From positions 1-52,355 of the forward strand of contig JAVJQW010000002.1 in the NCBI GenBank assembly GCA_040218735.1: DNA of 52,355 nt, given 5' to 3'. Each line of letters begins with the position of its first letter. Positions within the stretch are counted from its first letter, which is position 1. The stretch comes from Deltaproteobacteria bacterium. Lineage in GTDB: Bacteria; Myxococcota; Kuafuiibacteriia; Kuafuiibacteriales; Kuafuiibacteriaceae. The translations under genes and the position numbers were made by a program. The notes under the pieces were generated by a model that saw only the letters and a program-made list of their open reading frames with translations, made no database searches and was not told where the DNA came from. This document shows, one piece after another, positions 10,310-27,989 of the stretch.

Positions 10310-10431
10310 GCGCGCTGCGTCCGGGAGAACCCCGGCCACCCGCCACCGATCCAGCCTCTAAGTCAGCGAAAATCCCGAGTGTCGTCGGTTCTGTAGCTTT
10401 CTGTACCGACGGTCAGTCATGGTGGTCGGGC

Positions 10432-14942: not shown

Positions 14943-16289
<1,347 letters not shown>

Positions 16290-17010
16290 TGTTGTCGCGG
16301 CTCCCGGCGTCGTAGGCCGCGCTCGCGATGCGCTCCGCTGCGAGGTCGCCGTCGAGCAACGCGCCGATGTCTTCGTCCGACAGCACGTCCGTCACACCGT
16401 CGGTGCACAACAGCAGCGTGTCGCCGACCGCGAGCGCCTCCGACCTCAGGTCGGGGTCGCGCTTCGGCGTCTCGATCCCGAGCGCGCGCGTGATGACGTG
16501 CGCGTGGAGGAACTTCTCCTTTGGCGGCACGTCGGCGCCCGACGCACGCAGCTCTTCGTACAGCGAGTGGTCGCGCGTGAGGCACTCGATCTTCGACGCG
16601 CGCCGCCGGTACACGCGGCTGTCGCCGACGTGCGCAACGACGACGCGGTCTTCGATCGTCTGCACCATCGCGACCGTCGATCCCATCTGCGCGAGCGGAC
16701 CGACACGCGCCGCTTTGATCCGCGCGTCCGCGAGGCGAATCGCCGCGGCGACCACGTTCTCCTCGGGCGGCCGCGCGTAGTCGACGTCACTCGGCAGAAA
16801 GAGGTTGTCCCCGCGGGCGAGGCACGAGGCGAACCCGACGAGCGTCTCGATCGTGATCCGGCTCGCGACCTCGCCCCCCTCGTATCCGCCCATCCCGTCC
16901 GCGACCGCGAACAGCCCGAGCCCGGGCCGCGCGCAGCAGGCGTCTTCGTTGGAGGCCCGTCGTCCTTCGGTGGTGGTCCAGTCGAATGTCAGTTCCATGC
17001 CCCCTACAGG

Positions 17011-17027
17011 AGCGAACCGTGGACCGG
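17011..17027 (-). promoter_or_regulatory. Candidate sigma-54 (-24/-12) promoter of the PP2C gene
   Basis: Minus strand CCGGTCCACGGTTCGCT has exact GG-N10-GC spacing, 13 nt before the ATG; imperfect to the TGGCAC/TTGC consensus. Confidence 0.4.
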
Positions 17028-17086
17028 AGGTAGGGGGGCCATTTCACTCGGCGGGGTGGGGCGCGCACCCCCCTTCGCGGCGAGGG

Positions 17087-17101
17087 AGGCGGTCGGACCG
17101 C
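17087..17101 (-). terminator. Hairpin just downstream of the TonB receptor stop
   Basis: ggcggtc-g-gaccgcc inverted repeat; no U-tract. Confidence 0.3.
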
Positions 17102-17113
17102 CGTGTCTACCCC

Positions 17114-19381
17114 TCACTCGAAGGTGTGTTTGTAGCCGAGATAGATCTGGAGCGGCTGCCCGGGACGCGCGCCGAACGGGCGTCGAGACGCGATGTAGGC
17201 GGTGTTCGTGACGTTGAAGGCCTGCACGTAGAGGCGTCCTCCGAACAGTCGGTAGTACGCCGACGCGTCGATGATGACTGCGCGATCCGTCGCGTGGATG
17301 TCCTCGAGCGGGCCGTCGTCGGCGCGGTCGCGCATACGGTCGATGTAGCGCGCGGTCACGTTGAGCCCGAAGTCCGGGCGCGTCGCCGCGACGGTCGCGG
17401 CGAGCTGGTGTCGCGGTACGTACGGGAGCTCGTATCCGGCGAGGACGTTGCCCCACTGCGGGAACCCGGAGTCGAAGTCGGTGAGGAACTCCGAGAACGT
17501 GAGTGTGTAGGTCAGCTCGCCGCTGACGTCGAAGCCGAGCGGGGCGTGTGTGCCGTGGCTCGCGACGGCCTCCAGGCCGTACACCCACGCGGCGCCGCCG
17601 TTGAACTGGTCGGTGGTCATCGCGTCCGTGCAGCCGCTCGAGAACGTGCAGGTCCCGCTGATGTTCTGGTAGTCGTTGAAGAAGCCGATCACCTCGGCGC
17701 GCGCACGCGCGAGCTTCACCCGGGCGCCGGCTTCGTAGTTGAGGCTCTTCTCCGGGAGGGTGTCGTCGCTGGCGCCCGGCGTGACCGGGCTGAAGCCCTG
17801 GTGCACGCCGGCGATCACGCTGAGCCATCGCGTCGGCGAGTACGAGGCACCGATCCCAGGGAGGAGAACGGCGGTCTCGTTGTCGATGTCGCGTCGCTCG
17901 GGGACCGTCGACACGAAGGAGGTTTGGATCAGCTCGGCGCGGAGACCGGGCGTGAGGAGGAGGTCGCCGATCTCGATCTCGTCGAGGATGTGGAACGCAA
18001 ACGCGAGCGCACGGCCTTCGTTGTCGGTGACGGTCGCGATGTCGGAGGCGAGGACGGTGGTGCCGTTGAGCATGTCGTACGTGCCCTCGTCGTGGTCACG
18101 TCGGATCGAGTCCTGGTGAACACGGAGGCCGGCGACGATGTCCTGATTCACGAGGTAGAACAGCTGGGGCGCGCGCCACCGCGCCGTGGCCTGGACGCCG
18201 GTCGACACGAAGTCGCGCGCGTTCGTGCCGATGAGGAGCGCGCCGCTCGCGTCCTGTTCACCTCGGAGCACGGCGAGCCGCACCGCGTCTTCACCGCTGT
18301 CCTCGGCCTTGAGCAGGCTTCCGAGGTCGACGCCGGCGAGCCCGTTGAGCTTCTTCCACGCCCGCGAGAAGTCGTGCCGATAACCCGTGACGCGGACCTC
18401 GACCCGGTCGGTCTGCAGCAGGTACGACAGCGTGGCCTGCGTGCGCCACCAGTCCATGTTGCCGAGCTGACTTGCAGCGTACCTGCGGTACGGAGTCGCA
18501 TCGAAGTCGCCATCGCTCAGGCCGAGGTAGGTCTCGTTCGACTCCTCGTCGGCGTAACCGAGCTTTACCTCCAAGCGGTGCGCGTATTCGTCGCTCCGGT
18601 TGGTCCCGACGTACGCCTTCAGCATGACTTCGTTCTTCGCGAAGCCGGTGTCGCCGCCGCCGTCCAGCTCCTTGAATCCGTCGGTCTGAAGGTGAACGCC
18701 CTCGACGAGCACCCCCCAGTGCTCGGCGCCGTATCCGGTCGCCGCGTGGAGCTTTTGGTATCGGTTCACGCCGTACGCGGCGTCCACGTAGCCCTGTACG
18801 CCCGGGTCGATCCGGCGCGTTCGGAGATCGAGCGCGCCGCCGATCGTGTTCGGGCCGTACACGATCGAGGCGGGCCCTTTGAAGACGTCGACGCCGACCA
18901 ACCGGGTGACGATCGGAAAGTAGTACGCGGCGGGCGCGGAGTAGGGCGCTGGGCCGAGCAGGACGCCGTCCTCCATGAGTGCGACCTTCGCGCTTCGATC
19001 GGAGTTGGCGCCGCGCAGGCCGATGTTCGGACGGAGGCCGTAGCCGTCCTCGCCGCGGACGTACACGCCGGGCACCTGCATGAGCACGCGGTGGATGTCG
19101 TCGTACTCGAACTGTTCGAGGGCCACGTCGTCGACGCGGTAGGCGGAGCCCGCGATGCGCGCACGCTCCGCCGACGTGCCGTGGACGATCACCTCTTCGA
19201 TCTCGCCCTCGTCATCCGGCTCGGAGGGAGGAGCCGCGGTGACCTCGAGCGAGACGTCCGGGAGCACTTCGTCGAAGACGAAGTCTGCCGGGGTCGAAGT
19301 CTCGGTCTGGCTGACGGTCGACGTGTGCGTCGTCGTGCCGGTCGCGACCTGTCCGGCGAGGGTCAGCAAGAGGAGGAACAT
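17114..19381 (-). CDS. TonB-dependent receptor (FecA-like)
   Basis: EEVIVHG TonB-box-like segment; plug motifs VPGV...EDGYGLRPNIGLRG, KGPASIVYGP; C-terminal NVTN...GYKHTF beta strand. Confidence 0.95.
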   Translation of the reverse strand: MFLLLLTLAGQVATGTTTHTSTVSQTETSTPADFVFDEVLPDVSLEVTAAPPSEPDDEGEIEEVIVHGTSAERARIAGSAYRVDDVALEQFEYDDIHRVLMQVPGVYVRGEDGYGLRPNIGLRGANSDRSAKVALMEDGVLLGPAPYSAPAAYYFPIVTRLVGVDVFKGPASIVYGPNTIGGALDLRTRRIDPGVQGYVDAAYGVNRYQKLHAATGYGAEHWGVLVEGVHLQTDGFKELDGGGDTGFAKNEVMLKAYVGTNRSDEYAHRLEVKLGYADEESNETYLGLSDGDFDATPYRRYAASQLGNMDWWRTQATLSYLLQTDRVEVRVTGYRHDFSRAWKKLNGLAGVDLGSLLKAEDSGEDAVRLAVLRGEQDASGALLIGTNARDFVSTGVQATARWRAPQLFYLVNQDIVAGLRVHQDSIRRDHDEGTYDMLNGTTVLASDIATVTDNEGRALAFAFHILDEIEIGDLLLTPGLRAELIQTSFVSTVPERRDIDNETAVLLPGIGASYSPTRWLSVIAGVHQGFSPVTPGASDDTLPEKSLNYEAGARVKLARARAEVIGFFNDYQNISGTCTFSSGCTDAMTTDQFNGGAAWVYGLEAVASHGTHAPLGFDVSGELTYTLTFSEFLTDFDSGFPQWGNVLAGYELPYVPRHQLAATVAATRPDFGLNVTARYIDRMRDRADDGPLEDIHATDRAVIIDASAYYRLFGGRLYVQAFNVTNTAYIASRRPFGARPGQPLQIYLGYKHTFE

Positions 19382-19388
19382 CGTCGTC

Positions 19389-20738
19389 TCAGTGGTGCGC
19401 GGTCAGCTGCACCGGAGCCCCGGTCGGTCCGGGCATGAGCCACGCCGCATAGGGGACATCGTGGCCGACTCGCCGCACGTCGATCGCGGGATCCACGAGG
19501 AGCTGCGAGCGGCGTCCGTTCAGGGAGACGAGCGCCTCTGCACGAACCTCGACCGGGCCGAGTCCACGCCGTTCGAAGTCGGCGGCGACGTGTTGTCCGA
19601 GTTGGAGGATCATGTCCGGCTGCGACGACATCTCACTGACCTGCCGCCATGCGAGGTAGCGGTGCGGTGTCACCTGCCAGCGTCGATCCGTCAACGTATT
19701 GCGGACGTGGTACGTCACGGCGCCGTTCTTCTCGCGCACCATGACCTTCCAGGACCAGCGCATCCCGCGTTCGTTCCACAGGACGTCGCCATCGAGCAGG
19801 TAGTGGCGCAGCGGGACGGCGACCTGGAACGCGCAGTAGGCCACGACGATAGCGGTGGCGAGCCGACCCGGACGCGGCGTGGGGGCCTCGGCGAAGGACG
19901 GTGCGTTCCGAAGGATCCTGCGCGGCCAGCTCGGGTCGAAGAAGATCGTCGTCGCGACGATCATGATCGTCGGGAACATCCCGATGTCGAAGAACACCTG
20001 GGTCATCGCGTGGAACCCGAGCACCGCGAGGTACGCGAGGCCGCGCGTCCTTCGGATCGACAGCCACAACGGGATCGTCAGGTCGTAGAGGAAGCCGACC
20101 CAGCTCAACAGGTACGCGACCCAGAGCTTGCCGAGCCAGGACCCGATGAACGGGAGGTCGGTGCGGGAGCTCAGCCAGATGTTCAGCGGCTGAGCGTGCA
20201 GCAGCCAGTCGGCGTTCAGCTTCGCGAGCGCGGCGTAGAAGTAGACGACGCCGACCTGGAATCGCAGCAGCGACACCATCCAGCGCGGGACGGTGCTGCG
20301 CCTCAGCTCGGGCCGACGTCGAGCGTCGATCGAGAACGCGGCGTGCGCGGGGAGGACGGCGAGCAGCCCGCAGAGGAGGAAGACCAGGTAGTAGTGGTTG
20401 AGGTAGTTGGTCTGGTCCATCAGCTGGACGTAGGTCCACCCCAGCCCGAACGCGACGATGCTGAATCGGTAGTACAGGCCGAGCGCGACGCACAGGGCGA
20501 GCACGGCGAGGACGGCGTGGTGCAGGTACAGGCCCGTCGGCCCCCAGACCCGCACCCACTCGAAGCCCGGGTACTTGAAGAAGAAGCTCGGCTCGACGTA
20601 GACGATCTCGATCCAGCCGGACGCCATGAAGCGCACCAGGCCGGCGCACATCATCACGCCGAAGAGGATGCGGAGGGCGGCGATCGACGCGATGTCGACC
20701 GGAGCCGTCCAGCGCTCGCCGAGCCGCCGTTCAGTCAT
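19389..20738 (-). CDS. HTTM-domain / vitamin K-dependent gamma-carboxylase-like membrane protein
   Basis: LRILFG, DQTNYLNHYYL, VYFYAALAKLNADWL, IGMFP, WSWKVM, QPDMILQ, SLNGR; ATG at 20738 overlaps the upstream stop. Confidence 0.9.
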   Translation of the reverse strand: MTERRLGERWTAPVDIASIAALRILFGVMMCAGLVRFMASGWIEIVYVEPSFFFKYPGFEWVRVWGPTGLYLHHAVLAVLALCVALGLYYRFSIVAFGLGWTYVQLMDQTNYLNHYYLVFLLCGLLAVLPAHAAFSIDARRRPELRRSTVPRWMVSLLRFQVGVVYFYAALAKLNADWLLHAQPLNIWLSSRTDLPFIGSWLGKLWVAYLLSWVGFLYDLTIPLWLSIRRTRGLAYLAVLGFHAMTQVFFDIGMFPTIMIVATTIFFDPSWPRRILRNAPSFAEAPTPRPGRLATAIVVAYCAFQVAVPLRHYLLDGDVLWNERGMRWSWKVMVREKNGAVTYHVRNTLTDRRWQVTPHRYLAWRQVSEMSSQPDMILQLGQHVAADFERRGLGPVEVRAEALVSLNGRRSQLLVDPAIDVRRVGHDVPYAAWLMPGPTGAPVQLTAHH

Positions 20739-21888
20739 TGTCGCCGGCGCCCTCCTGCGGGACATCGAGGTTCAGCACGGATACGAAGCGACTCTTCAGC
20801 TCGTCCGTGACCTTCTTGACTGCGGCGTGGATCGGCATCGCTTCGTTCGGGTTGGACTGAAGCATCGTGCGCAGGTCCGGGTCTCCGGCCGCCGCGGCGA
20901 TCGCTGCTTCCGCATCAGCCACCATCTGGTCGGCGAGATCGCCCGCGTTCGACGCGCGCAGGTAGTCATCGAAGCCGACGCCTTCGCCCGCCGTGAGGCC
21001 CGCGAGGAAGCCCTGGAGGTTGGCGTGCACGGCGGCGCGCGAGAAGTCGGCGAAGCGGAACTCCAGCGTCTCGGGGCACACCTCGGTCGTGCAGTCGGGG
21101 TGCAGCCCGAGCGGCGTCGCGAGCTTTTTGTCCTTGGTCGTCAGCTCGAGATAGAACATCGCCGCGAACAGGTCGTTGAGGGCCTCACGCTCGCTGCGAT
21201 ACGGGGAGTCGTCGTCGCCGGGCCGGGCGAACGCGTCAGCGAACCCGTCTGTCGCCCAGGCGTCCCTCAGCTGCGTCGCGTCCGCGACCACCTTCGTCGC
21301 CATCACGCGCGCGAGCGCCGCTCGACGCGCGTCGACCTCACCGGCGATCGCGTCCCACTGGCCCTCGGAGTTGATGCCGAGGACCGGCGAGCACGTGTTC
21401 TCGGGCGAGTCGTAGAACAGCAGGTACTCGATGGCGTCGAGGCCGTAGCTGTTGACGAGCTTGCCGTCGAAGTAACTCGGCGCTTCGAAGCCGTTCGCGA
21501 CGATCTCCTGGTCGACGCGGCACGTGTTCGACGTCGGCCAAGAGTAGATCTCGTCGCGTAGGTTGCGACCGTCGATGACCTTGCTGCTCTGACCGGCGGG
21601 GCCGACCTGAAACACCTCGGCCTGCTGCCACATCGCCATCACGTCGCGCCACGCCGCACGTGCTTCATCGCGTGCGGTGGTCGACGTGGGGTCCGCGGCG
21701 TACGCGGCGGTGGCCGACTCGAGGCCGACCGCCGCCGTCACGACGCGCTCGTAGATGGGCAGGATCGCATTGTCGGCGACGCCGGCGAGCACGGCCTTGC
21801 GGTCGAACCCCTGGGGGTCATCGCCGCCGTTGCCGGGTTTCGAACACGCCGCGCTCAACAGTGCGACCAAGAGGACCTTACGTCGCAT
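20731..21888 (-). CDS. Imelysin-family lipoprotein
   Basis: Lipobox LSAAC; ARAAW...WQ.AE...GP, IYSWP, GLDAIEYLL, C-terminal GDND. Confidence 0.88.
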   Translation of the reverse strand: MRRKVLLVALLSAACSKPGNGGDDPQGFDRKAVLAGVADNAILPIYERVVTAAVGLESATAAYAADPTSTTARDEARAAWRDVMAMWQQAEVFQVGPAGQSSKVIDGRNLRDEIYSWPTSNTCRVDQEIVANGFEAPSYFDGKLVNSYGLDAIEYLLFYDSPENTCSPVLGINSEGQWDAIAGEVDARRAALARVMATKVVADATQLRDAWATDGFADAFARPGDDDSPYRSEREALNDLFAAMFYLELTTKDKKLATPLGLHPDCTTEVCPETLEFRFADFSRAAVHANLQGFLAGLTAGEGVGFDDYLRASNAGDLADQMVADAEAAIAAAAGDPDLRTMLQSNPNEAMPIHAAVKKVTDELKSRFVSVLNLDVPQEGAGDND

Positions 21889-21891
21889 CAC

Positions 21892-23385
21892 CTACCAGCC
21901 GTTCTCCCCGACCATGTCGCCGAGGTTGTCCGAGGCGAAGCCCATCGCGCTACCGATCATCGCGCGGGCGTCCCGCAGGTCCGTCTTGTACTGCTCGATG
22001 TCCGCCGAGCCCGGGAGCACCGGCGCGTCGCGCAGCAGCGCGTGGAGCATTTCGAACTGAGCGTCCGTCAGCGACGAGTGCCGGCTGAATTGGAACGCGA
22101 GCGCGAAGCCCTTCATCTCGCTCCAGTGTTTGGCGTGGTCGTAGAAGTTGTACTCGGACGTGCCGAACGCCTCCATGTCCTGCAGCGTGTCGTTGATGTA
22201 GTGGACCACGGTGGCGGCGATCGCCGCCTCCCAGGCGGTCAGCGCCTTGTCACGCTCCACGACGAGCGCCGCCATCTTCTCGGTGTCGAGCGCGCCGCCG
22301 GCGGTGGCGATGATGTGTCGCCCCGCCGTGAAGGCGTCGATCGCGTCCTTGGTGAAGTCGGTCGCGACGACCGCGCCGCGGTCGCGTTTGCCCGCGTTCT
22401 GCGCGTGCCCGAAGACGTACTCGCTGAGGAGATCGATCGAACCGTCACCGTCCGTATCGTGGTACCCGCTCGACCACCCTTCGCGGCCGCCCGCGGCGGC
22501 GATCTCGTCGTCGTCGTACATCGCGTAGTCGTGCGAGGCGCCGAAGTAGCCGAAGCCCTCGTCCCACTGGTGCTCGAGCGCGGTGTAGGGCGAGTCGCCG
22601 TCGGCCATCGTGTTGTCGGTGCGCAGGCCCTTACCGTCCGTGTCGTCGTCCAGGTAGTCGTCAGCGCCCTGCGAGTAGGCGATCGCGCCGGTGAGGAACT
22701 TCTGGAGGAGCTGCGAGTAGTCCAGCCCCTCCGGCGAGACGTAGACCTCGCTGATCGCGTTGCCGTCCGGGTCGACCGGGATGTCACCGGCCGCGCGTCG
22801 AGCGGCGAGCGTGTCCAGCTCGGCGAACCACAGGCGCACCAGGCTCTCCGGCGTGGTGACGCTCGCGTCGTCCCATCCTCGGAACGCCATGGTCCAGTCC
22901 TCGTGCTGACCGGCCTCGTCGTTGCCGGCGATCTTGCCGATGAGGTTCGCGCTGCCGATCTCGCCGTAGGTCGTCTGCAGCGCGGCGGGCGTGGTGTCGA
23001 TGCCGTGCGTCTCGCCGCCGGCCGAGGCCGCGTCGAACTCGAGGTAGAACTCGAGCTCGGCCATGACGTCGCCGGTCGTGGGTGTGAACGTGCCCATGTC
23101 GATGCGGTCCGTCAGGCCCGACACGCGGTTCTTCATGTCCACGATGAGGACGTGCCGCAGCGTCTGTCCGCTGTGGACGACGCTCGATGCACCCGCCTCG
23201 AAGCGGCTCTCGAAGGTGTAGGTCGTCGGAGGATCCGTCGGGTCGACCGTGGAGCCGCCGTCCCGCGTCACGCCACCGTCGCGATCGATCGTGGTGTCAT
23301 CCCCATCGTCGTCGTCGCCGCTGCAAGCGAATCCGGCCGCGAGGGCGCCTGTGAGGAGCAGTCGGAGTGCACACGTCTTGTTCAT
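21892..23385 (-). CDS. DUF4856-domain lipoprotein
   Basis: Lipobox GFAC; SSV.HSGQT.R, GLDYSQLLQK.L.GA, EHQWDEGFGYFG, KHWSEMKGF motifs. Confidence 0.85.
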   Translation of the reverse strand: MNKTCALRLLLTGALAAGFACSGDDDDGDDTTIDRDGGVTRDGGSTVDPTDPPTTYTFESRFEAGASSVVHSGQTLRHVLIVDMKNRVSGLTDRIDMGTFTPTTGDVMAELEFYLEFDAASAGGETHGIDTTPAALQTTYGEIGSANLIGKIAGNDEAGQHEDWTMAFRGWDDASVTTPESLVRLWFAELDTLAARRAAGDIPVDPDGNAISEVYVSPEGLDYSQLLQKFLTGAIAYSQGADDYLDDDTDGKGLRTDNTMADGDSPYTALEHQWDEGFGYFGASHDYAMYDDDEIAAAGGREGWSSGYHDTDGDGSIDLLSEYVFGHAQNAGKRDRGAVVATDFTKDAIDAFTAGRHIIATAGGALDTEKMAALVVERDKALTAWEAAIAATVVHYINDTLQDMEAFGTSEYNFYDHAKHWSEMKGFALAFQFSRHSSLTDAQFEMLHALLRDAPVLPGSADIEQYKTDLRDARAMIGSAMGFASDNLGDMVGENGW

Positions 23386-23408
23386 GCTCCAGATGCTGTA
23401 CTGCTTTT

Positions 23409-23433
23409 GATTTTGAGAATCAATCGCATTATC
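23409..23433. promoter_or_regulatory. Fur-box-like operator
   Basis: AT-rich GATTTTGAGAATCAATCGCATTATC in a GC-rich genome; resembles overlapping GATAATGATAATCATTATC; directly upstream of an iron-uptake-type operon. Confidence 0.75.
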
Positions 23434-23484
23434 GGTGCGATCGCGCGGCTTGACTCGATCGCGTCCCCTCAGTACCCGGGCGTC

Positions 23485-24177
23485 ATGAAGGCTCTCCCCC
23501 TGTGTTTGGCCATCGTCTCGTTGCTCGCTACGGCGTCCGCCCGCGCGGACGAGGCCACGCTCGCCCGAGGTGGGCTGCTCTACGACAACTGGTCGAAAGT
23601 CGTGAGCAAGAAGCCCCCGGCGAAGCCGAACCCGGCCTATCCGAAGACCGGCAAGTACTTCGGGAAGGATGGCGCGGACTACCGGTGCAAGGAGTGCCAC
23701 GGCTGGGACTACCGCGGGAAGGACGGCGCGTACGCTTCAGGGAAACACGCGACGGGCATCGCGGGCATCCGGGCCGCGGCGAAGCGACCCGAAGCGAAGA
23801 TCGTCAAGGTGCTGAAGGACTCGACGCACGGCTACGGGGACCTGCTCTCGGACGCGGACCTCGCGGCGCTGGCCGCGTTTGTGTCCAAGGGCCAGGTCGA
23901 CATGGACCGCGTCATCGATCGCAAGACCAAGAAGGCCCGCGGGAAGGCCGCGCGGGGCAAGCCGGTCTTCGAGACCATCTGCGCGAAGTGCCACGGCGTC
24001 GACGGTAAGGGGGAGCCGAAGATGGACGCCCTCGGTCCGCTCGCACGCGGCAATCCGTGGGAGACGCTCCACAAGATCCTCAACGGGCAGCCGGACTCCG
24101 AGATGCCGGCGCTCCGCGCGCTCGACCGCCAGGTCGCGCTGGACGTCCTGACCTACGCGCAGACGCTGCCCGACTGA
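23485..24177 (+). CDS. Di-heme cytochrome c
   Basis: Signal peptide; CKECH and CAKCH heme motifs; GGLLYDNW; C-terminal MP ligand. Confidence 0.9.
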   Translation: MKALPLCLAIVSLLATASARADEATLARGGLLYDNWSKVVSKKPPAKPNPAYPKTGKYFGKDGADYRCKECHGWDYRGKDGAYASGKHATGIAGIRAAAKRPEAKIVKVLKDSTHGYGDLLSDADLAALAAFVSKGQVDMDRVIDRKTKKARGKAARGKPVFETICAKCHGVDGKGEPKMDALGPLARGNPWETLHKILNGQPDSEMPALRALDRQVALDVLTYAQTLPD

Positions 24178-26616
24178 TCAGAACCGCATCGGCACGTACG
24201 TCCCGACCAGCTGCGCGTTGTTCTCGTACACCACGCCGAGCAGGAAGTTCTCCACGCCCGAGTCCGTCTCCACGGCGATCGCGTTGTCCCGGACGTAGCC
24301 GTCGCTGAGGCGCATGAAGGCCGACGCCAAGCCGTAGATCGCGACGTCGCAGTTCTTCGCCTCGAACGCGTCGATCTCGAGCTCGCCGAAGTTCTCCTGA
24401 CCGAATCCGACGCGTCCCTCCTCTCCGCAGTCGATCGCCACACCGGTGAGATCGGCGATACCGCGCCAGTCGGCGGTGACCGCGTAGCGCGCGTCCGTGA
24501 TGCGCACGTTCGAGCCGGTGATCCGGCCGTCGTAGTACACGCCGACGCCGCGAATTCGCGCGTTGTCGACCGCGAAGTCGTCGATCGTCACCTTCGCGCT
24601 CTGCGTGACGTCGAGGCCCCAGCCACGGATGTCATGGATATGGACCCGGCGAAAGGCGACCTCGGCGTCGCACCCCACCTCGACGCCAAAGTACGGGCTC
24701 GCGCTCTCGTTGCCGAGCAGCTCGGCGTCGGTGATGCGCAGCATCCCCGTCCGTATCTCTTCCGAGCAGTCGTTTTGGCTCTCGAGCTCACCGTCGTCGA
24801 TCGCGAGGGCCGACGTCAGCGCGCCCTCCACGTGGATACGATCCAGCACAGCCGAAGCGCCGGAACGGATTTCGATCCCGACGCTGTTCTCGTCCGACGA
24901 CGCGCCGCGCGCGATGCCGACGAGCCGGACGTGGTCGGCGTCGATGGACGCGCGGCTCTCCACGAGCAGGCCCCAGCGCGCGCTGTTCGCGATGTCGACG
25001 TGGTCCAACGTCAGCGTCGCTGCCGAACCTGCGTTGACCGCCATGCCGTGCCAGCCGCGGTCCGGCTCGGTCGCGACGTCGCGGATCAACACGTTGCGGA
25101 GGGTTGCCGCCGACGACACGAACCAGCCGGCGCTCGTGATGACCCGTGCGATCCAGCTGTGCTCGACGAAGACCGTACTGTTGTTCGTCGCGAAGATGGC
25201 GCGCCCGTCGCGCTCATCGAGCGCGACGCTGTCTTCGATCACCGCGTAGTCGAGCGTGACTTCGGCGCTGTCGACGCGGACGGTGCTCCCGGTGGCTTGG
25301 GTGAAGAGCGCGCGCGTGACCGTCGTCGACGCGCCGGACTGCGCGCGCACGGCGGAACCGCCGACGCGCTCGACCACGACGTCGTCGAGCGTCGCCACGA
25401 CGTCCCCGTCGAAGCTGAACGCGTCGTCCGCGCCGTCACGGATGACGACGTTCGTCGCCACCACGGTCCCGGCGTTCGCGGCCACCGCCACGCCGAGGGC
25501 GTCGTCCACCACGACGCGGTTCAACGTGATGTCCGCGCCGCCGATAAACGGGACCCGCAGACCGCCGCCCCGCGAGAAGATCGCACGGTCCGCGACGATC
25601 TTGGCGGCGCCAGACGCCGAGACCGCTCCGCGCTGCACGGTGACGTCCATGAACGCGAGCTCGGACGCTGCGCCGTTCACCGCCCAGGGCCCGCCGAGCT
25701 GGATCGTGGACTGTTCCGCACACGCGCCGACGAACTGCACCAGGCCGGTCAAGGAGCGCGCCGGATCGATGTGGGTCCCACGGCGGAGCGCGATCGCGAC
25801 CGAGGCGGGCGCGCCGTCGAGCGCGGCGTCGATCGTACGGAACGGATCCTCGCGGGTCCCGACGCCGTCCGGACCCGCGTCGGGGTCGACGTAGCGGACC
25901 GGCCGATCGTTGGGGACCGTGTCGGGCCAGCCGCTGGTCGGGCACGCCACGCCGACATCGCCGCAGTCGGCGTCCGCGATGAACTGATGGCCCGCGCAGT
26001 CACGCGTCGGCGGACGGCACGCGGAGATCCCGTCCACGTCGACGGTCAGCCAACCGTCCGGGCAGGTGCCGAAGTCAGGGGCCTCGGGGGGCATCGGTGG
26101 GGTGGGCGCCTGCGGCGAGGTCGGTTCGGGGCAGGTCGCGGAGCAGCTGTCGTTCGCCGCGTCGCTCTCGGTCGCGAAGCACCCGCCCGCCATCGCGCAC
26201 GACGCAACGGAGTCTCCGGCGATTCGGAACGCGGCGAGCTCGTCGTCGAGGGTGTCGCGCGGCGCCCAGGTCGAAAGGCCACTGGCGCCGACCGTCGCCG
26301 AGAAGAGTTGGTCGGGGAGGGGGAGGCGGCGGTTGTTCGCTTCGCCACGCGCGTCGGTGAGTGGACCGGGCCGGAGGCCGAGCTCGTCGAGCGTGCGCGC
26401 GTAGTAGAGCACGGAGATGTCCGTGTTCGTGGCGATCCCGACGCGGTCGGGACGTCCGTCGGGGTACACGAAGGCTTCGACGCGTACGCCGCCAGCCGGG
26501 AGCGCCAGCCCGACGAGCATCGATCGGGTGCCTTCGTCCGCTTCGGGGAACGTGGCCGAGCGCTGCGCGTGGCACGCGCCGAGCAGGACCAGTAGGGGCG
26601 CGAAGACGCGGCGCAC
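24178..26616 (-). CDS. Right-handed beta-helix repeat lipoprotein
   Basis: Lipobox LLGAC; Cys/Pro-rich linker; YVDP...GT...PF.TI..AL motif preceding parallel beta-helix repeats. Confidence 0.8.
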   Translation of the reverse strand: MRRVFAPLLVLLGACHAQRSATFPEADEGTRSMLVGLALPAGGVRVEAFVYPDGRPDRVGIATNTDISVLYYARTLDELGLRPGPLTDARGEANNRRLPLPDQLFSATVGASGLSTWAPRDTLDDELAAFRIAGDSVASCAMAGGCFATESDAANDSCSATCPEPTSPQAPTPPMPPEAPDFGTCPDGWLTVDVDGISACRPPTRDCAGHQFIADADCGDVGVACPTSGWPDTVPNDRPVRYVDPDAGPDGVGTREDPFRTIDAALDGAPASVAIALRRGTHIDPARSLTGLVQFVGACAEQSTIQLGGPWAVNGAASELAFMDVTVQRGAVSASGAAKIVADRAIFSRGGGLRVPFIGGADITLNRVVVDDALGVAVAANAGTVVATNVVIRDGADDAFSFDGDVVATLDDVVVERVGGSAVRAQSGASTTVTRALFTQATGSTVRVDSAEVTLDYAVIEDSVALDERDGRAIFATNNSTVFVEHSWIARVITSAGWFVSSAATLRNVLIRDVATEPDRGWHGMAVNAGSAATLTLDHVDIANSARWGLLVESRASIDADHVRLVGIARGASSDENSVGIEIRSGASAVLDRIHVEGALTSALAIDDGELESQNDCSEEIRTGMLRITDAELLGNESASPYFGVEVGCDAEVAFRRVHIHDIRGWGLDVTQSAKVTIDDFAVDNARIRGVGVYYDGRITGSNVRITDARYAVTADWRGIADLTGVAIDCGEEGRVGFGQENFGELEIDAFEAKNCDVAIYGLASAFMRLSDGYVRDNAIAVETDSGVENFLLGVVYENNAQLVGTYVPMRF

Positions 26617-26723
26617 ACTTCGACTCTGCCAGGCTGCGTCCCCCAACAGAAGGGGCTTCGGAAATGTCCCACGGATGTTCCACCGATGAATTCGACAGCC
26701 CGCGCGCCCTACCATCCGGCGCC

Positions 26724-27989
26724 ATGACACACATCTTTCGCCACGCGGCGCCGATCGCGCTCCTCGTGCTCGTTGTCGCGTGCTCCGACGAGCCGTTGGA
26801 CGCCGGCGACGGGATGGTCCGAGATGCGGGCACGACCGTTGTCGCGGACGGCGGCGGCCAGGACCGCGACGCCGGCGAGCCCGCGGTCGACGCCGGGGTC
26901 GCGCGCGACGGCGGTTCGGTGCGGGACGGCGGGACCTCGACGTCCACGGTTCCGCTCGGGACGATCGACCTCGGCACGATCTCGACGGGCGCCGACGGGC
27001 GCACACCGCCGATCGAGTTCGAGCTCCCCGCCGACACCGTCAGCTTCATGGTCGTGACGGAAGCGGCGCCCGAGGCGTTCGTCGTCGTCTACACCCTCGA
27101 AGGCCCGGACGGCCCGCTCGTCACGAACGACGAGTCCACGCTCACGCCGCTCGAGCGCCTCCTGCTGGGACCCTTCGCCGCGCAGTTCAAGAGCCCGAAC
27201 CGCGTCGTGCAGGACAGCGGCATCGCGGCGGCGCTGTTCCCGAACAACCCGGGCGTCTCGGTGAGCGGGGGCACGTACACGATGCGGATCGCCGGGCTGG
27301 TGCCCCAAGGGCAGCAGGGCCAACCGTACGTCGGGGACATCGATGTCGAGATCCTCTTCCGCACCCAGGTGCCGTCGTCCGGGCGCCTCGACGTATCGCT
27401 GTACTTCACCGGTGCGGGGGGTATCGACGCCGCTTCCGCTCCGACCGCACCGTTGATCCAAGACGCGCTCGTGGATCTGGGGGAGATCTATGCGACCGCC
27501 GGCATCACCATCGGCGCCATCGCGTACCACGACGTCGACGCCCGCTTCCGCACGATCGAGGTCGCGCTCAGCGGTGGCGCCGGGCCGCTCGAAGAAATGT
27601 TCGAGGCGACCCAAGGGCCCGGGCTGCACTTCTTCTTCGTGGACCGGTTCGAATCGCCCATCCCGGGCGGTGCGATCGGTGGGATCGCGGGGGGGCTGCC
27701 CGGACCGCCGCTGCGTCCATCTACCCTCAACAGCGGCGTCGCCGTCGCCCTCGAGCCCGCGAACGAGGACCCTGCCGTGTTGGCGCACGTGATGGCGCAC
27801 GAGGGCGGCCACTGGCTCGGGCTGTTCCACACGTCGGAGATCACCGGCAGCGAGGATCAGCACCCGGAGACGCCGTCGGGCGAGGCCGGCAACCTGCACC
27901 TGATGTACCCGGCCGTCGGCGGCGGGACGATGATCTCACCGTCGCAGGCGCGTGTGATGCGACTGCACGCCGAGACGATCGCGCAGTGA
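26724..27989 (+). CDS. Zinc metalloprotease lipoprotein (metzincin, M43-like)
   Basis: Lipobox VVAC; HEGGHWLGLFH (HExxHxxGxxH) and Met-turn LMYP. Confidence 0.85.
   Translation: MTHIFRHAAPIALLVLVVACSDEPLDAGDGMVRDAGTTVVADGGGQDRDAGEPAVDAGVARDGGSVRDGGTSTSTVPLGTIDLGTISTGADGRTPPIEFELPADTVSFMVVTEAAPEAFVVVYTLEGPDGPLVTNDESTLTPLERLLLGPFAAQFKSPNRVVQDSGIAAALFPNNPGVSVSGGTYTMRIAGLVPQGQQGQPYVGDIDVEILFRTQVPSSGRLDVSLYFTGAGGIDAASAPTAPLIQDALVDLGEIYATAGITIGAIAYHDVDARFRTIEVALSGGAGPLEEMFEATQGPGLHFFFVDRFESPIPGGAIGGIAGGLPGPPLRPSTLNSGVAVALEPANEDPAVLAHVMAHEGGHWLGLFHTSEITGSEDQHPETPSGEAGNLHLMYPAVGGGTMISPSQARVMRLHAETIAQ

What the first reader, a model, noticed from the sequence alone, without database searches (positions are those of the whole stretch)
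17114..23433. Fur-controlled uptake operon containing a vitamin K-dependent carboxylase-like enzyme
Seen: four tightly packed co-oriented genes (DUF4856 lipoprotein, imelysin lipoprotein, HTTM protein, TonB receptor) behind a Fur-like box. The HTTM protein keeps segments matching eukaryotic gamma-glutamyl carboxylase: NYLNHYYL, AKLNADW (with a Lys at the position of the proposed catalytic lysine) and WSWKVM. Known: imelysin-like proteins and FecA-type receptors act in iron uptake; to my knowledge bacterial HTTM function is unestablished. Inference: a quinone-dependent enzyme could modify (e.g. Glu-carboxylate) the very acidic partner lipoproteins or receptor N-terminus to build metal sites, or process the imported ligand.
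Basis: partly seen in the sequence, partly recalled or inferred. Interest (0 to 1): 0.7.

Follow-up and report, generated by a model that had tools for sequence, protein, structure and literature searches.

The report
Iron operon pairing imelysin with carboxylase-like enzyme
An iron-regulated uptake operon pairs a periplasmic imelysin lipoprotein with a membrane enzyme related to the human vitamin K-dependent carboxylase, and the imelysin's conserved Asp-rich C-terminal tail looks like that enzyme's docking site or substrate.

Summary
Four tightly packed minus-strand genes (DUF4856 lipoprotein, imelysin lipoprotein, HTTM/GGCX-like membrane protein, TonB-dependent receptor) lie behind a Fur-type box at 23409-23433.

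The HTTM protein is a clear homologue of human gamma-glutamyl carboxylase. It keeps the catalytic Lys218, His160 and Asn159 equivalents and most of the vitamin K pocket. Three Glu/substrate-holding residues are changed and the C-terminal third of the human enzyme is absent.

- **Core pair:** imelysin sits beside HTTM on the same strand in 76 of 80 related loci. This holds in two operon types, one with a TonB receptor and one with a di-haem oxidoreductase. DUF4856 (36 of 80) and the receptor (65 of 80) are optional.
- **Tail:** all 77 complete HTTM-adjacent imelysins end in DxD or DxDGD. Imelysins not next to HTTM lack this ending.
- **Predicted complex:** score 0.85 against 0.00 for the best control. 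The imelysin C-terminal helix and tail lie against the lumenal domain and active-site residues.
- **Iron control:** supported by a genome-wide box motif next to iron genes, conserved boxes in relatives, and published Fur/iron induction of a like-named gene cluster in Riemerella.

Best reading: a menaquinol-dependent enzyme modifies, probably carboxylates, the imelysin tail. This is inferred, not shown.

The parts
23409..23433 (.). Fur-type operator: an imperfect 25-bp palindrome, GATTTTGAGAATCAATCGCATTATC on the plus strand. It lies in the 99-bp gap between the DUF4856 gene and a divergent cytochrome c gene.
   Evidence: It matches 14 of 19 positions of the E. coli Fur consensus. It has 4 mismatches to the genome's own 25-mer consensus. 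The genome holds 10 sites with 7 or fewer mismatches against 0.55 expected. Flanking genes at the other sites are mostly iron genes.
21892..23385 (-). DUF4856 lipoprotein, 497 aa, pI 4.2. The first gene of the operon and an optional member of the module.
   Evidence: Pfam PF16148, 56.7 bits. Cys21 follows a signal peptide. Conserved motifs are ALEHxWDEGFGYFG and HAKHWSE. Found in 36 of 80 related loci. The AF2 model (pLDDT 87.8) is all-helical with no clear solved relative.
20731..21891 (-). Imelysin-family lipoprotein, 386 aa, pI 4.35. The predicted partner or substrate of the HTTM enzyme.
   Evidence: Pfam PF09375, 114.7 bits. Cys16 is invariant. The motif reads GLDAIEYLLF, with Asp in place of the His of GxHxxE. 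Adjacent to HTTM on the same strand in 76 of 80 loci. Predicted complex 0.85 against a best control of 0.00.
20734..20760 (-). Codons for the imelysin extreme C-terminal tail, PQEGAGDND-COOH (residues 378-386). D384, N385 and D386 are conserved.
   Evidence: D384 and D386 are invariant and N385 nearly so in 21 of 21 sequences. All 77 complete HTTM-adjacent imelysins end in DxD or DxDGD. So do 8 of 8 in an independent Bacteroidota sample, against 0 of 3 imelysins next to a di-haem oxidoreductase with no HTTM seen within the 1.5-kb flanks. Tail residues 377-385 are in the predicted interface.
19389..20765 (-). HTTM / vitamin K-dependent carboxylase-like inner-membrane protein, 458 aa, or 449 aa from the second Met. 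It has a transmembrane catalytic domain and a periplasmic 'lumenal' domain.
   Evidence: PF05090, 288.8 bits, and PF22777, 139.5 bits. Human GGCX E = 2.3e-37. The AF2 model (pLDDT 80, pTM 0.81) matches only GGCX structures, TM 0.78-0.80, E about 1e-22. K182, H124 and N123 are invariant in 17 of 17 sequences.
17114..19381 (-). TonB-dependent outer-membrane receptor, 755 aa. No N-terminal signalling domain was detected.
   Evidence: Plug, 44.9 bits, and barrel, 104.3 bits. Below every NCBIfam equivalog or subfamily cut-off. Nearest solved relative is FecA, E = 1.3e-14. Present in 65 of 80 related loci.

Best explanation
This is a Fur-repressed, TonB-dependent metal (most likely iron) acquisition operon. 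[quoted passage not shown]

**Shown by computation**
- The genes, their domains and their tight packing.
- A Fur-type box that belongs to a genome-wide iron-gene motif.
- Retention of the catalytic Lys, the Asn-His pair and most of the naphthoquinone pocket.
- Menaquinone (MenD) and VKOR genes in the genome.
- Near-obligate imelysin-HTTM adjacency in two operon architectures and several phyla.
- An invariant Asp-x-Asp(-Gly-Asp) extreme C-terminus found on every HTTM-adjacent imelysin examined and on none of the other imelysins examined.
- A confident predicted complex. The imelysin C-terminal helix packs on the periplasmic 'lumenal' sheet, as a propeptide does on the exosite. The interface also includes the tail (377-385) and active-site residues 122-124 and 260-264.

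**Inferred**
- The enzyme binds menaquinol, deprotonates it with Lys182 and oxygenates it to a strong base.
- It uses that base to modify the docked tail, most likely by carboxylating an Asp. MloH does this on a small molecule and GGCX does it on Glu.
- The result is a malonate-like chelating group, so the mature imelysin binds the incoming metal in the periplasm more tightly.
- DUF4856 (possibly a capture or shuttle lipoprotein) and the TonB receptor deliver the ligand across the outer membrane.
For: - **Domains and homology:**
- **Conserved residues, human to this protein:** K218 to K182, H160 to H124, N159 to N123, V210 to V174, A214 to A178, D222 to D186, W223 to W187, D263 to D228, G259 to G224, F286 to F251, F294 to F259, F299 to F264. 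I counted these by hand from the alignment. All are invariant in 17 of 17 sequences. Their roles come from passages in PMC12589487 and PMC12647623.
- **Cofactor supply:** MenD scores 384 bits against a 244-bit cut-off. There are two VKOR matches.
- **Synteny:** imelysin is adjacent on the same strand in 76 of 80 loci and present in 78 of 80.
- **Second architecture:** imelysin-1, di-haem oxidoreductase, imelysin-2, HTTM. It occurs in this genome. The oxidoreductase and HTTM-adjacent imelysin are seen in L068, L083 and L085, with the upstream imelysin-1 confirmed in L083 and L085. It also occurs in Polyangium sp. 6x1 and on a Chondrinema litorale plasmid.
- **Tail:** 77 of 77. 8 of 8 against 0 of 3 in a sample of 61 Bacteroidota-phylum genomes. 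Imelysin-1 lacks the tail in all 5 operons checked: L090 and L083, L085 and L107, Chondrinema.
- **Complex:** score 0.85 in each of 3 runs, best of 3 controls 0.00. That mark was reached by 58 of 80 solved complexes and 2 of 110 mismatched pairs; these counts hold only roughly because my own alignments were used. The runs share at least 88% of contacts and the partner's pLDDT is at least 85. No HTTM-imelysin complex was among the solved structures matched.
- **Interface conservation:** conserved HTTM residues are enriched in the interface, 21 of 53 against 103 of 405, p = 0.024.
- **Iron control:**, and PMC5609570 Table 4.
- **Precedent for Asp carboxylation by a bacterial homologue:** MloH (passages).
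Against: - No chemistry was observed. Everything past binding is inference.
- By sequence alignment, three human residues that hold the Glu substrate differ: N158 to L122, Y395 to M335, R436 to E378. K217 is A181 and M401 is V341.
- The model is of low confidence exactly at 120-122 and 325-348, near the active site.
- The protein lacks the human C-terminal region beyond about residue 500.
- The tool gives no coordinates. That the tail, rather than another part of the imelysin, touches residues 122-124 and 260-264 is my inference.
- Conserved imelysin residues are not significantly enriched in the interface (7 of 43 against 29 of 343, p = 0.089).
- The 80 loci are those most similar to this HTTM, so the adjacency figures describe close orthologues (42-60% identity).
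- I could not establish whether IPPA-type imelysins carry the same tail in genomes without HTTM.
- From recall, not from any call: the Leptospira orthologue was reported to epoxidise vitamin K without carboxylating the tested substrates.
- The metal or ligand is not identified. The receptor fits no specific NCBIfam model.
Confidence: 0.45

Rival explanations
1. A quinol-linked redox module with no covalent modification. The HTTM protein couples the menaquinol pool to the metal held by the imelysin. It could reduce Fe(III) carried on the Asp-rich tail next to the quinol site, or supply or consume an oxidant much as the di-haem oxidoreductase does in classical imelysin operons. The tail acts as a metal-carrying arm, not a substrate.
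For: The quinone pocket and the deprotonating Lys are conserved, while part of the Glu site is changed. HTTM sits in operons with a di-haem oxidoreductase. In type A operons it occupies the place that oxidoreductase holds elsewhere. DxDGD resembles metal- or Ca-binding loops (my recall). The complex places the tail region and quinol-site residues in one interface.
Against: N123, H124 and F264, equivalents of the human residues that hold the substrate carboxylate and CO2, are invariant. That is not required for simple electron transfer. HTTM and the di-haem oxidoreductase co-occur in type B operons, so they are not simple substitutes. No HTTM-family reductase came up in my literature searches.
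Confidence: 0.22
2. The enzyme gamma-carboxylates Glu residues in the acidic bodies of the DUF4856 or imelysin lipoproteins, or in the receptor N-terminus, to build Gla-type metal sites.
For: All three proteins are acidic: pI 4.2-4.8 with 22-42 Glu each. The Asn-His pair that binds the Glu carboxylate in GGCX is kept. Imelysin residues outside the tail (30-32, 224-225, 262-265) also lie in the predicted interface.
Against: DUF4856 is present in only 36 of 80 loci and the receptor in 65 of 80. The conserved tail has no conserved Glu. Y395, which positions the Glu side chain and stacks on the residue just upstream of it, and R436 are not conserved. No propeptide-like element was found in DUF4856 or the receptor, and their C-termini never carry the tail (0 of 36 and 0 of 59).
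Confidence: 0.1
3. The enzyme acts on the imported small molecule, or on a secreted chelator, as MloH acts on a biosynthetic intermediate. The imelysin only presents that ligand.
For: The one characterised bacterial homologue works on a small molecule. The receptor's ligand is unknown.
Against: No biosynthetic genes are conserved in the 80 loci beyond the four families. Strict co-variation of a protein tail with HTTM and a confident protein-protein model point to a protein partner.
Confidence: 0.08
4. A non-catalytic role. The HTTM protein is an inner-membrane dock, chaperone or conduit that receives metal-loaded imelysin, as a functional analogue of EfeU. The catalytic residues are relics.
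For: It is the only inner-membrane protein in the operon, and no permease or ABC transporter is encoded there. The predicted interface is large, 152-164 contacts.
Against: The catalytic Lys, the Asn-His pair and the pocket aromatics are invariant across 17 sequences of 51-59% identity and in the 46%-identical paralogue. That argues for selection on chemistry. The GGCX fold has no known channel (one search matched only GGCX).
Confidence: 0.1

Closest known systems
[quoted passage not shown] PDB 9bvk, 9l6q, 9wf3)
   Same: Same fold over the whole bacterial protein: TM 0.78-0.80, E about 1e-22, about 26% identity. Sequence E = 2.3e-37. The catalytic Lys, the Asn-His pair, D263, W223 and the Phe cage of the quinone/CO2 pocket are kept. 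The active side faces the compartment equivalent to the ER lumen. The predicted partner binds through a helix on the lumenal domain plus an acidic stretch, like propeptide plus Gla domain.
   Different: 458 aa against 758 aa, with no equivalent of the human C-terminal region. N158, Y395, R436, K217 and M401 are replaced. The predicted partner is an imelysin lipoprotein with a C-terminal Asp-rich tail, not an N-terminal propeptide followed by Glu. The quinone would be menaquinone from the cell's own pathway. Activity is untested.
MloH, the vitamin K-dependent carboxylase orthologue of malonomycin biosynthesis (Law et al. 2018; known to me only through passages in PMC12647623, PMC12186529 and a bioRxiv preprint)
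   Same: A bacterial HTTM-family enzyme reported to carboxylate an aspartyl residue. It is the precedent for Asp rather than Glu as the substrate.
   Different: MloH acts on a polyketide-peptide intermediate inside a biosynthetic cluster and is fused to an extra domain. Here the context is an iron-regulated uptake operon and the candidate substrate is a protein. I did not compare the sequences.
Riemerella anatipestifer RAYM_09779-09794 (TonB-dependent receptor, 'vitamin K-dependent gamma-carboxylase', imelysin lipoprotein, hypothetical protein)
   Same: The same gene names in the same order. All four are listed as induced by iron restriction and by fur deletion (PMC5609570, Table 4, passages seen).
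   Different: The paper lists them without comment on function. I did not fetch those sequences, so orthology is inferred from names and from the same arrangement in 8 Bacteroidota-phylum genomes.
Classical Fur-regulated imelysin operons (P. aeruginosa PA4370-4373 / IcmP, V. cholerae VC1264-1266, Leptospira LruB operon) and EfeUOB
   Same: Imelysin lipoproteins under iron/Fur control, often next to a TonB receptor and a di-haem oxidoreductase (PMC3143127, passages; PMC13066512, passages). This genome's second cluster has exactly that core.
   Different: The passages I read describe no HTTM gene in those operons. A term search of PMC3143127 found 0 occurrences each of 'HTTM' and 'carboxylase'. 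Here HTTM is added (type B) or stands where the oxidoreductase would be (type A). The adjacent imelysin has lost the His of GxHxxE and carries the DxD tail.
Leptospira vitamin K-dependent carboxylase orthologue (Rishavy et al. 2005; recalled, not seen in any call)
   Same: A bacterial GGCX homologue, reported to retain vitamin K epoxidase activity.
   Different: As I recall, no carboxylation of the tested substrates was found and no partner was identified. Not checked here.

Membership tests
HTTM / vitamin K-dependent carboxylase (GGCX) family | HTTM transmembrane domain and VKGC lumenal domain above Pfam gathering scores | tested here: met
   PF05090, 288.8 bits against 27.7. PF22777, 139.5 bits against 27.7.
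HTTM / vitamin K-dependent carboxylase (GGCX) family | GGCX three-dimensional fold | tested here: met
   The AF2 model (pLDDT 80, pTM 0.81) has 16 matches with E of 0.001 or less, all human GGCX, with query TM 0.66-0.80. The next match has E = 0.16.
HTTM / vitamin K-dependent carboxylase (GGCX) family | Catalytic base Lys218 and the residues that position it (W223, D263) | tested here: met
   K182, W187 and D228 are aligned and invariant in 17 of 17 sequences. Their roles come from passages.
HTTM / vitamin K-dependent carboxylase (GGCX) family | Naphthoquinone and CO2 pocket (H160, V210, A214, G259, F286, F294, F299, M401, N290) | tested here: met
   Seven of nine are identical and invariant: H124, V174, A178, G224, F251, F259, F264. 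M401 is V341 and N290 is T255.
HTTM / vitamin K-dependent carboxylase (GGCX) family | Glu-substrate pocket (N158, N159, H160, Y395, R436) | tested here: inconclusive
   N159 and H160 are kept (N123, H124). N158 is L122, Y395 is M335 and R436 is E378 by sequence alignment. The model is of low confidence at 120-122 and 325-348, so the structural equivalence is not settled.
HTTM / vitamin K-dependent carboxylase (GGCX) family | Propeptide-binding exosite and C-terminal region of the animal enzyme | tested here: not met
   The protein ends at residue 458, aligned to about human residue 504. Nothing corresponds to the human C-terminal ~250 residues. The lumenal sheet is instead predicted to bind the imelysin C-terminal helix.
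HTTM / vitamin K-dependent carboxylase (GGCX) family | Vitamin K hydroquinone- and O2-dependent carboxylase or epoxidase activity | not testable with these tools
   Only the cofactor supply could be checked: MenD and VKOR are present.
Imelysin (Peptidase_M75) family | Pfam domain above cut-off, and a lipoprotein signal | tested here: met
   PF09375, 114.7 bits against 23.5. Cys16 is invariant after a hydrophobic leader.
Imelysin (Peptidase_M75) family | GxHxxE motif (His and Glu of the putative functional site) | tested here: not met
   The motif reads GLDAIE. Glu155 is kept in at least 90% of sequences, but His is Asp here and varies in relatives. This is the 'GxxxxE' variant described for IPPA-type proteins (PMC3143127).
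DUF4856 | Pfam domain above cut-off | tested here: met
   PF16148, 56.7 bits against 22.3, covering residues 187-483.
TonB-dependent receptor; FecA / siderophore subfamilies | Plug and 22-strand barrel domains; subfamily cut-offs | tested here: inconclusive
   Plug and barrel are met. TIGR01783 scores 102 bits against 223.5, and the FecA equivalog 68 bits against 1100, so neither is met. No signalling-domain hit.
Fur regulon (Fur box) | An operator resembling the Fur consensus in the promoter, shared with other iron genes | tested here: met
   14 of 19 positions match. The 25-mer motif occurs 10 times against 0.55 expected. Iron genes flank 6 of the 8 regions that hold those sites. One weaker site lies beside a Fur-family gene. 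Fur binding itself is not testable here.

The most novel reading that the evidence does not exclude
Bacteria use a vitamin K (menaquinone)-dependent carboxylase to mature a metal-uptake protein. The enzyme recognises the imelysin C-terminal helix as an exosite and carboxylates Asp in the invariant DxD(GD)-COOH tail, creating a malonate-type 'claw' that binds iron in the periplasm. This would be the first protein substrate of a bacterial GGCX homologue. It would also be a new post-translational modification in iron acquisition and the likely ancestral job of the enzyme family that animals later used for blood clotting.
Probability: 0.35. Interest if true: 0.9.

Novelty: new variant of a known kind. 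Interest (0 to 1): 0.74.

Why it matters
Bacterial homologues of the blood-clotting carboxylase have been known for about twenty years. Only one, a small-molecule biosynthetic enzyme, has a function that came up in what I read, and none has a known protein substrate. Imelysin proteins are also widespread, iron-regulated and mechanistically unexplained.

This work links the two families and names a specific, testable candidate substrate: a C-terminal tail whose last three to five residues are conserved. It also gives a predicted interface and identifies the regulatory signal. One mass-spectrometry comparison of wild type against an HTTM deletion in a tractable non-pathogenic relative would decide the question. 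If positive, it would explain both families at once and indicate what the ancestral carboxylase did.

Tried and rejected
- **DUF4856 as a divergent imelysin.** Profile-profile comparison found only the signal peptides. It has no solved relative by sequence or Foldseek (best E = 0.27). VIA-align's best Z of 8.2 is to generic helical bundles, and no imelysin is listed. The result is inconclusive and I did not pursue it.
- **Divergent di-haem cytochrome c (23485-24177) as a conserved partner.** 0 of 80 loci had a tblastn hit at E of 1e-5 or less. Rejected as part of the module.
- **Simple promoter and terminator scan of 16800-23700.** One promoter-like site inside the HTTM gene and no terminator, no better than shuffled sequence. 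Uninformative.
- **13-mer core of the box alone.** At 2 mismatches there were 20 sites against about 47 expected, so no enrichment. Only the 25-mer is informative.
- **RNA evidence.** No RNA holder was listed.
- **Does IPPA (PDB 3pf0) carry the tail?** The paper says its last six residues (384-389) were disordered. The profile alignment stops 8 residues before the chain end. A search with the last 60 residues of a tailed imelysin found no imelysin. Unresolved.
- **Literature searches with no hits.** 'HTTM' with 'imelysin' gave 0 papers and 'DUF4856' gave 0. 'HTTM domain' with 'iron', and 'HTTM' with 'TonB-dependent', each gave only an unrelated preprint on DUF complexes. So I found no paper in the searchable library that links HTTM with imelysin. 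Subscription journals and supplementary files were not searched.
- **First attempts at family scans.** They failed on a coordinate slip (stop codon or wrong frame) and were corrected.

Full report
**1. What is in the window**

The window is 65-71% G+C. It lies in an 11.6-Mb, 70-contig genome. Four minus-strand ORFs fill 17114-23385.

- A 497-aa protein starts at the ATG at 23385. Its leader ends ...LTGALAAGFAC and is followed by SGDDDDGDD.
- A 386-aa protein has the leader ...LLSAAC.
- A 458-aa polytopic membrane protein follows.
- A 755-aa protein is last.

Pfam names them DUF4856 (56.7 bits), imelysin/Peptidase_M75 (114.7), HTTM (288.8) plus VKGC lumenal domain (139.5), and TonB-dependent receptor Plug plus barrel. 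The stop of one gene and the start of the next are 0 nt apart, overlapping by 35 nt (8 nt from the second Met, the start used by the database copy P0001), and 7 nt apart.

**2. The Fur-like box**

The 99-bp gap upstream of the DUF4856 gene holds GATAATGCGATTGATTCTC, read on the minus strand.

In the whole genome only 33 strand-hits are as good or better. Many of those are GATGAT-type coding repeats. The better AT-rich hits share a longer imperfect palindrome, GATTTTGAGAATSATTCTCAAAATC.

With that 25-mer the genome holds 10 sites with 7 or fewer mismatches, against 0.55 expected from base composition. The window site (23409-23433, 4 mismatches) ties for second. This consensus was derived from the same genome, so the count is partly circular.

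The independent check is what lies next to the sites. The 10 sites fall in 8 regions, and 6 of those regions flank iron-type genes:
- a TonB receptor with HmuY;
- DUF3450 with ExbB;
- a ferritin-like gene;
- another TonB receptor;
- this operon;
- a second imelysin-HTTM operon.

Two sites with 8 mismatches flank other iron-related genes. One flanks an NRPS with a terminal reductase plus a class III aminotransferase, which I recall as myxochelin-like. The other flanks a TonB receptor with a PepSY_TM protein, and that site also abuts one of the genome's two Fur-family genes.

I then looked upstream of related clusters in other genomes, in the 260 nt before the first cluster gene. The best match to the 19-mer has 5 or fewer mismatches in 31 of 72 assessable loci. 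It is the single best window of the whole locus in 31 of 72 (the two counts are separate measures).

In Riemerella anatipestifer, a receptor / 'vitamin K-dependent gamma-carboxylase' / imelysin / hypothetical-protein cluster is listed among genes induced by iron restriction and by fur deletion (PMC5609570, Table 4; passages only). Iron/Fur control is therefore well supported, though untested in this organism.

**3. The HTTM protein is a true GGCX homologue with a mostly intact catalytic centre**

phmmer against PDB sequences finds only human GGCX, with E = 2.3e-37. An AlphaFold2 model built on 17 sequences has pLDDT 80 and pTM 0.81. It is of low confidence at 120-122 and 325-348. It matches only GGCX structures, with query TM up to 0.80 and E down to 1e-21; the next hit has E = 0.16.

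I transferred the residue roles described in two 2025 structure papers onto the alignment by hand. I saw passages of these papers, not whole texts: PMC12589487 and PMC12647623.

Conserved, and invariant in 17 of 17 orthologues of 51-59% identity:
- K218 to K182, the base that deprotonates the hydroquinone;
- H160 to H124 and N159 to N123, which bind the substrate carboxylate;
- W223 to W187 and D263 to D228, next to the Lys;
- V210, A214, G259, F286, F294 and F299, the quinone/CO2 cage.

Changed:
- N158 to L122;
- Y395 to M335, which orients the Glu side chain and stacks on the residue before it;
- R436 to E378, by sequence alignment only;
- K217 to A181, M401 to V341 and N290 to T255.

The protein stops at about human residue 504, so the human C-terminal third is missing. 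The genome has MenD (384 bits) and two VKOR homologues but no futalosine-pathway MqnA. Menaquinone and a possible epoxide reductase are therefore available.

My reading is that the quinol-activating half of the active site is under selection, while the substrate half has been remodelled.

**4. The conserved unit is imelysin plus HTTM**

The 80 most similar were kept. They are mostly Myxococcota MAGs, with some Binatia, Terriglobales, SAR324 and Bacteroidota. I ran tblastn with the window's proteins against them:

| Feature | Loci (of 80) |
|---|---|
| Imelysin gene present | 78 |
| Imelysin adjacent to HTTM, same strand | 76 |
| TonB receptor | 65 |
| DUF4856 | 36 |
| Divergent cytochrome c | 0 |

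The main gene orders are DUF4856-imelysin-HTTM-receptor (27), imelysin-HTTM-receptor (18) and HTTM-imelysin-receptor (13).

This genome's second HTTM gene is 46% identical with its motifs intact. It ends a different operon behind another copy of the box. That operon reads: a 449-aa protein with no Pfam family, imelysin-1 (with GYHAIEFLLW), a di-haem oxidoreductase (PF06537), imelysin-2, then HTTM. This is the classical Fur-regulated imelysin operon described for Pseudomonas, Vibrio and Leptospira (PMC3143127; PMC13066512) with an HTTM gene added.

The same type B order recurs in several places:
- In L068, L083 and L085 the di-haem oxidoreductase lies just upstream of the HTTM-adjacent imelysin. 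The upstream imelysin-1 is confirmed in L083 and L085.
- It recurs in Polyangium sp. 6x1.
- On an annotated Chondrinema litorale plasmid it is followed by a TonB receptor.

Two architectures sharing only the imelysin-HTTM pair point to the imelysin as the enzyme's partner.

**5. A tail that marks the HTTM-adjacent imelysin**

Aligning 21 HTTM-adjacent imelysins shows that, beyond the Pfam domain, all end ...GDND-COOH (Myxococcota type A) or ...DNDGD-COOH (Bacteroidota). D384 and D386 are invariant and N385 nearly so.

- Across the 80 loci, all 77 complete neighbour imelysins end in DxD or DxDGD. 73 end strictly in D[N/A]D(GD).
- None of 36 DUF4856, 59 receptor or 77 HTTM C-termini do.
- Within type B operons only imelysin-2, the one next to HTTM, has the tail. 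Imelysin-1 lacks it in all 5 operons checked.

I also drew an independent sample of 61 Bacteroidota-phylum genomes, in which 12 had an imelysin match. Eight were DUF4856-imelysin-HTTM, and all eight imelysins end D(N/A)DGD. Three were imelysin plus di-haem oxidoreductase with no HTTM within the 1.5-kb flanks, and none has the tail. One was a weak hit. A Pseudoalteromonas imelysin next to a di-haem oxidoreductase also lacks it.

The tail has no conserved Glu.

Open point: I could not see the last residues of the IPPA crystal construct. Whether IPPA-type proteins in HTTM-less gamma-proteobacteria carry the tail is unknown.

**6. Predicted complex**

HTTM (alignment A1) was folded with imelysin (A2). 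The score was 0.85 in each of three runs, and the best of three controls scored 0.00. That mark was reached by 58 of 80 solved complexes and 2 of 110 mismatched pairs. These counts hold only roughly, because my own alignments were used. The runs share at least 88% of contacts, and the partner's pLDDT is at least 85. The model supports binding; it does not show it.

The lowest-error contacts join the imelysin C-terminal helix (359-374) to the lumenal sheet of HTTM (347-351, 412-420). The interface also lists imelysin tail residues 377-385. On the HTTM side it lists 122-124 (Leu-Asn-His of the active site), 196-203 (the region aligned to the human 'cap') and 260-264 (around the Phe299 equivalent).

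No coordinates are returned. That the tail is what reaches the active-site residues is my inference from its being the only extended segment.

Conserved HTTM positions are enriched in the interface: 21 of 53 against 103 of 405, p = 0.024. For imelysin the trend is not significant: 7 of 43 against 29 of 343, p = 0.089.

The layout parallels GGCX with its substrates, where a helix binds an exosite and an acidic stretch enters the catalytic pocket. Here the polarity is C-terminal, and the partner is unrelated to Gla proteins.

**7. Mechanism and rivals**

Most likely (0.45):
- The enzyme binds menaquinol, deprotonates it with K182 and reacts it with O2 to generate the strong base.
- It uses that base on the docked tail, probably to carboxylate an Asp.
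- Aspartyl carboxylation by a bacterial family member has a precedent in MloH.
- Replacement of the residues that fit a Glu side chain is consistent with a shorter substrate.
- The product would be a chelating group on a protein family already tied to iron.

Rivals:
- a quinol-linked redox complex with no modification (0.22);
- Glu carboxylation of the acidic protein bodies or the receptor, as first proposed (0.10);
- action on a small-molecule ligand (0.08);
- a non-catalytic dock or conduit (0.10).

The imported ligand is unknown. The receptor reaches no NCBIfam subfamily cut-off, and its nearest solved relative is FecA at E = 1.3e-14.

**8. Novelty**

Bacterial GGCX homologues are known, and RefSeq annotates such clusters. 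The Riemerella table lists one as Fur-regulated. A 2025 paper notes broad conservation of the active centre in bacteria.

I found no paper in the searchable library that links HTTM to imelysin. Subscription journals and supplements were not covered.

Three things appear to be new:
- the near-obligate imelysin-HTTM pairing across two operon types;
- the invariant C-terminal tail;
- the predicted exosite-plus-tail complex.

I rate it a new variant of a known kind. The enzyme family and the imelysin systems are both known, while their coupling and the candidate protein substrate are not.

Noticed in passing
window 23485-24177 (+): A 230-aa secreted cytochrome c with two CxxCH motifs (CKECH, CAKCH; PF00034 and PF13442) is transcribed divergently from the same 99-bp region that holds the Fur-type box, so it may be co-regulated. 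It has no counterpart in the 80 related loci.
   Followed up: partly
G000:C9, locus L090 about 4048-10320 (minus strand): A second Fur-box operon in the same genome reads: a 449-aa protein with no Pfam family, imelysin-1, di-haem oxidoreductase (PF06537), imelysin-2 ending FSDNDGD, and an HTTM paralogue of 46% identity. The 449-aa first gene is unexplained.
   Followed up: partly
G000 genome-wide (C42:447299-447351, C9:107916, C59:28763, C8:203862, C4:57104, C4:64224, C61:233417-233630, C61:427385): A 25-bp palindromic Fur-type motif marks a putative iron regulon: TonB receptor with HmuY, ExbB, ferritin-like, NRPS-reductase with aminotransferase, receptor with PepSY_TM, and a Fur-family gene. 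Two regions on C61 flank genes with no obvious iron link (an FMN_bind protein and a Kelch-repeat protein).
   Followed up: partly
window about 22420-22470 (DUF4856 residues about 306-322, HDTDGDGSIDLLSE): Myxococcota-type DUF4856 proteins carry an inserted DxDxDG-like loop of about 20 residues, reminiscent of calcium-binding loops (my recall). It is absent from the three Bacteroidota orthologues in the alignment.
   Followed up: no
locus L122 (Chondrinema litorale plasmid NZ_CP111045.1, 479329-490333): An annotated hybrid operon, imelysin, di-haem oxidoreductase, imelysin, HTTM, TonB-dependent receptor, joins the two architectures in one transcription unit on a 524-kb non-mobilizable plasmid.
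   Followed up: partly
window 16258-16998 (-) and 24178-27006 (-): A PP2C-type phosphatase gene lies 115 nt downstream of the receptor on the same strand, with no terminator-like site between them. A 942-aa right-handed beta-helix protein lies beyond the cytochrome c gene. Neither was examined for conservation.
   Followed up: no
loci L072, L078, L084 (upstream of imelysin-HTTM, opposite strand): Three related loci without DUF4856 have a DUF5122 beta-propeller protein divergently upstream of the imelysin gene. It may be an alternative accessory protein.
   Followed up: no
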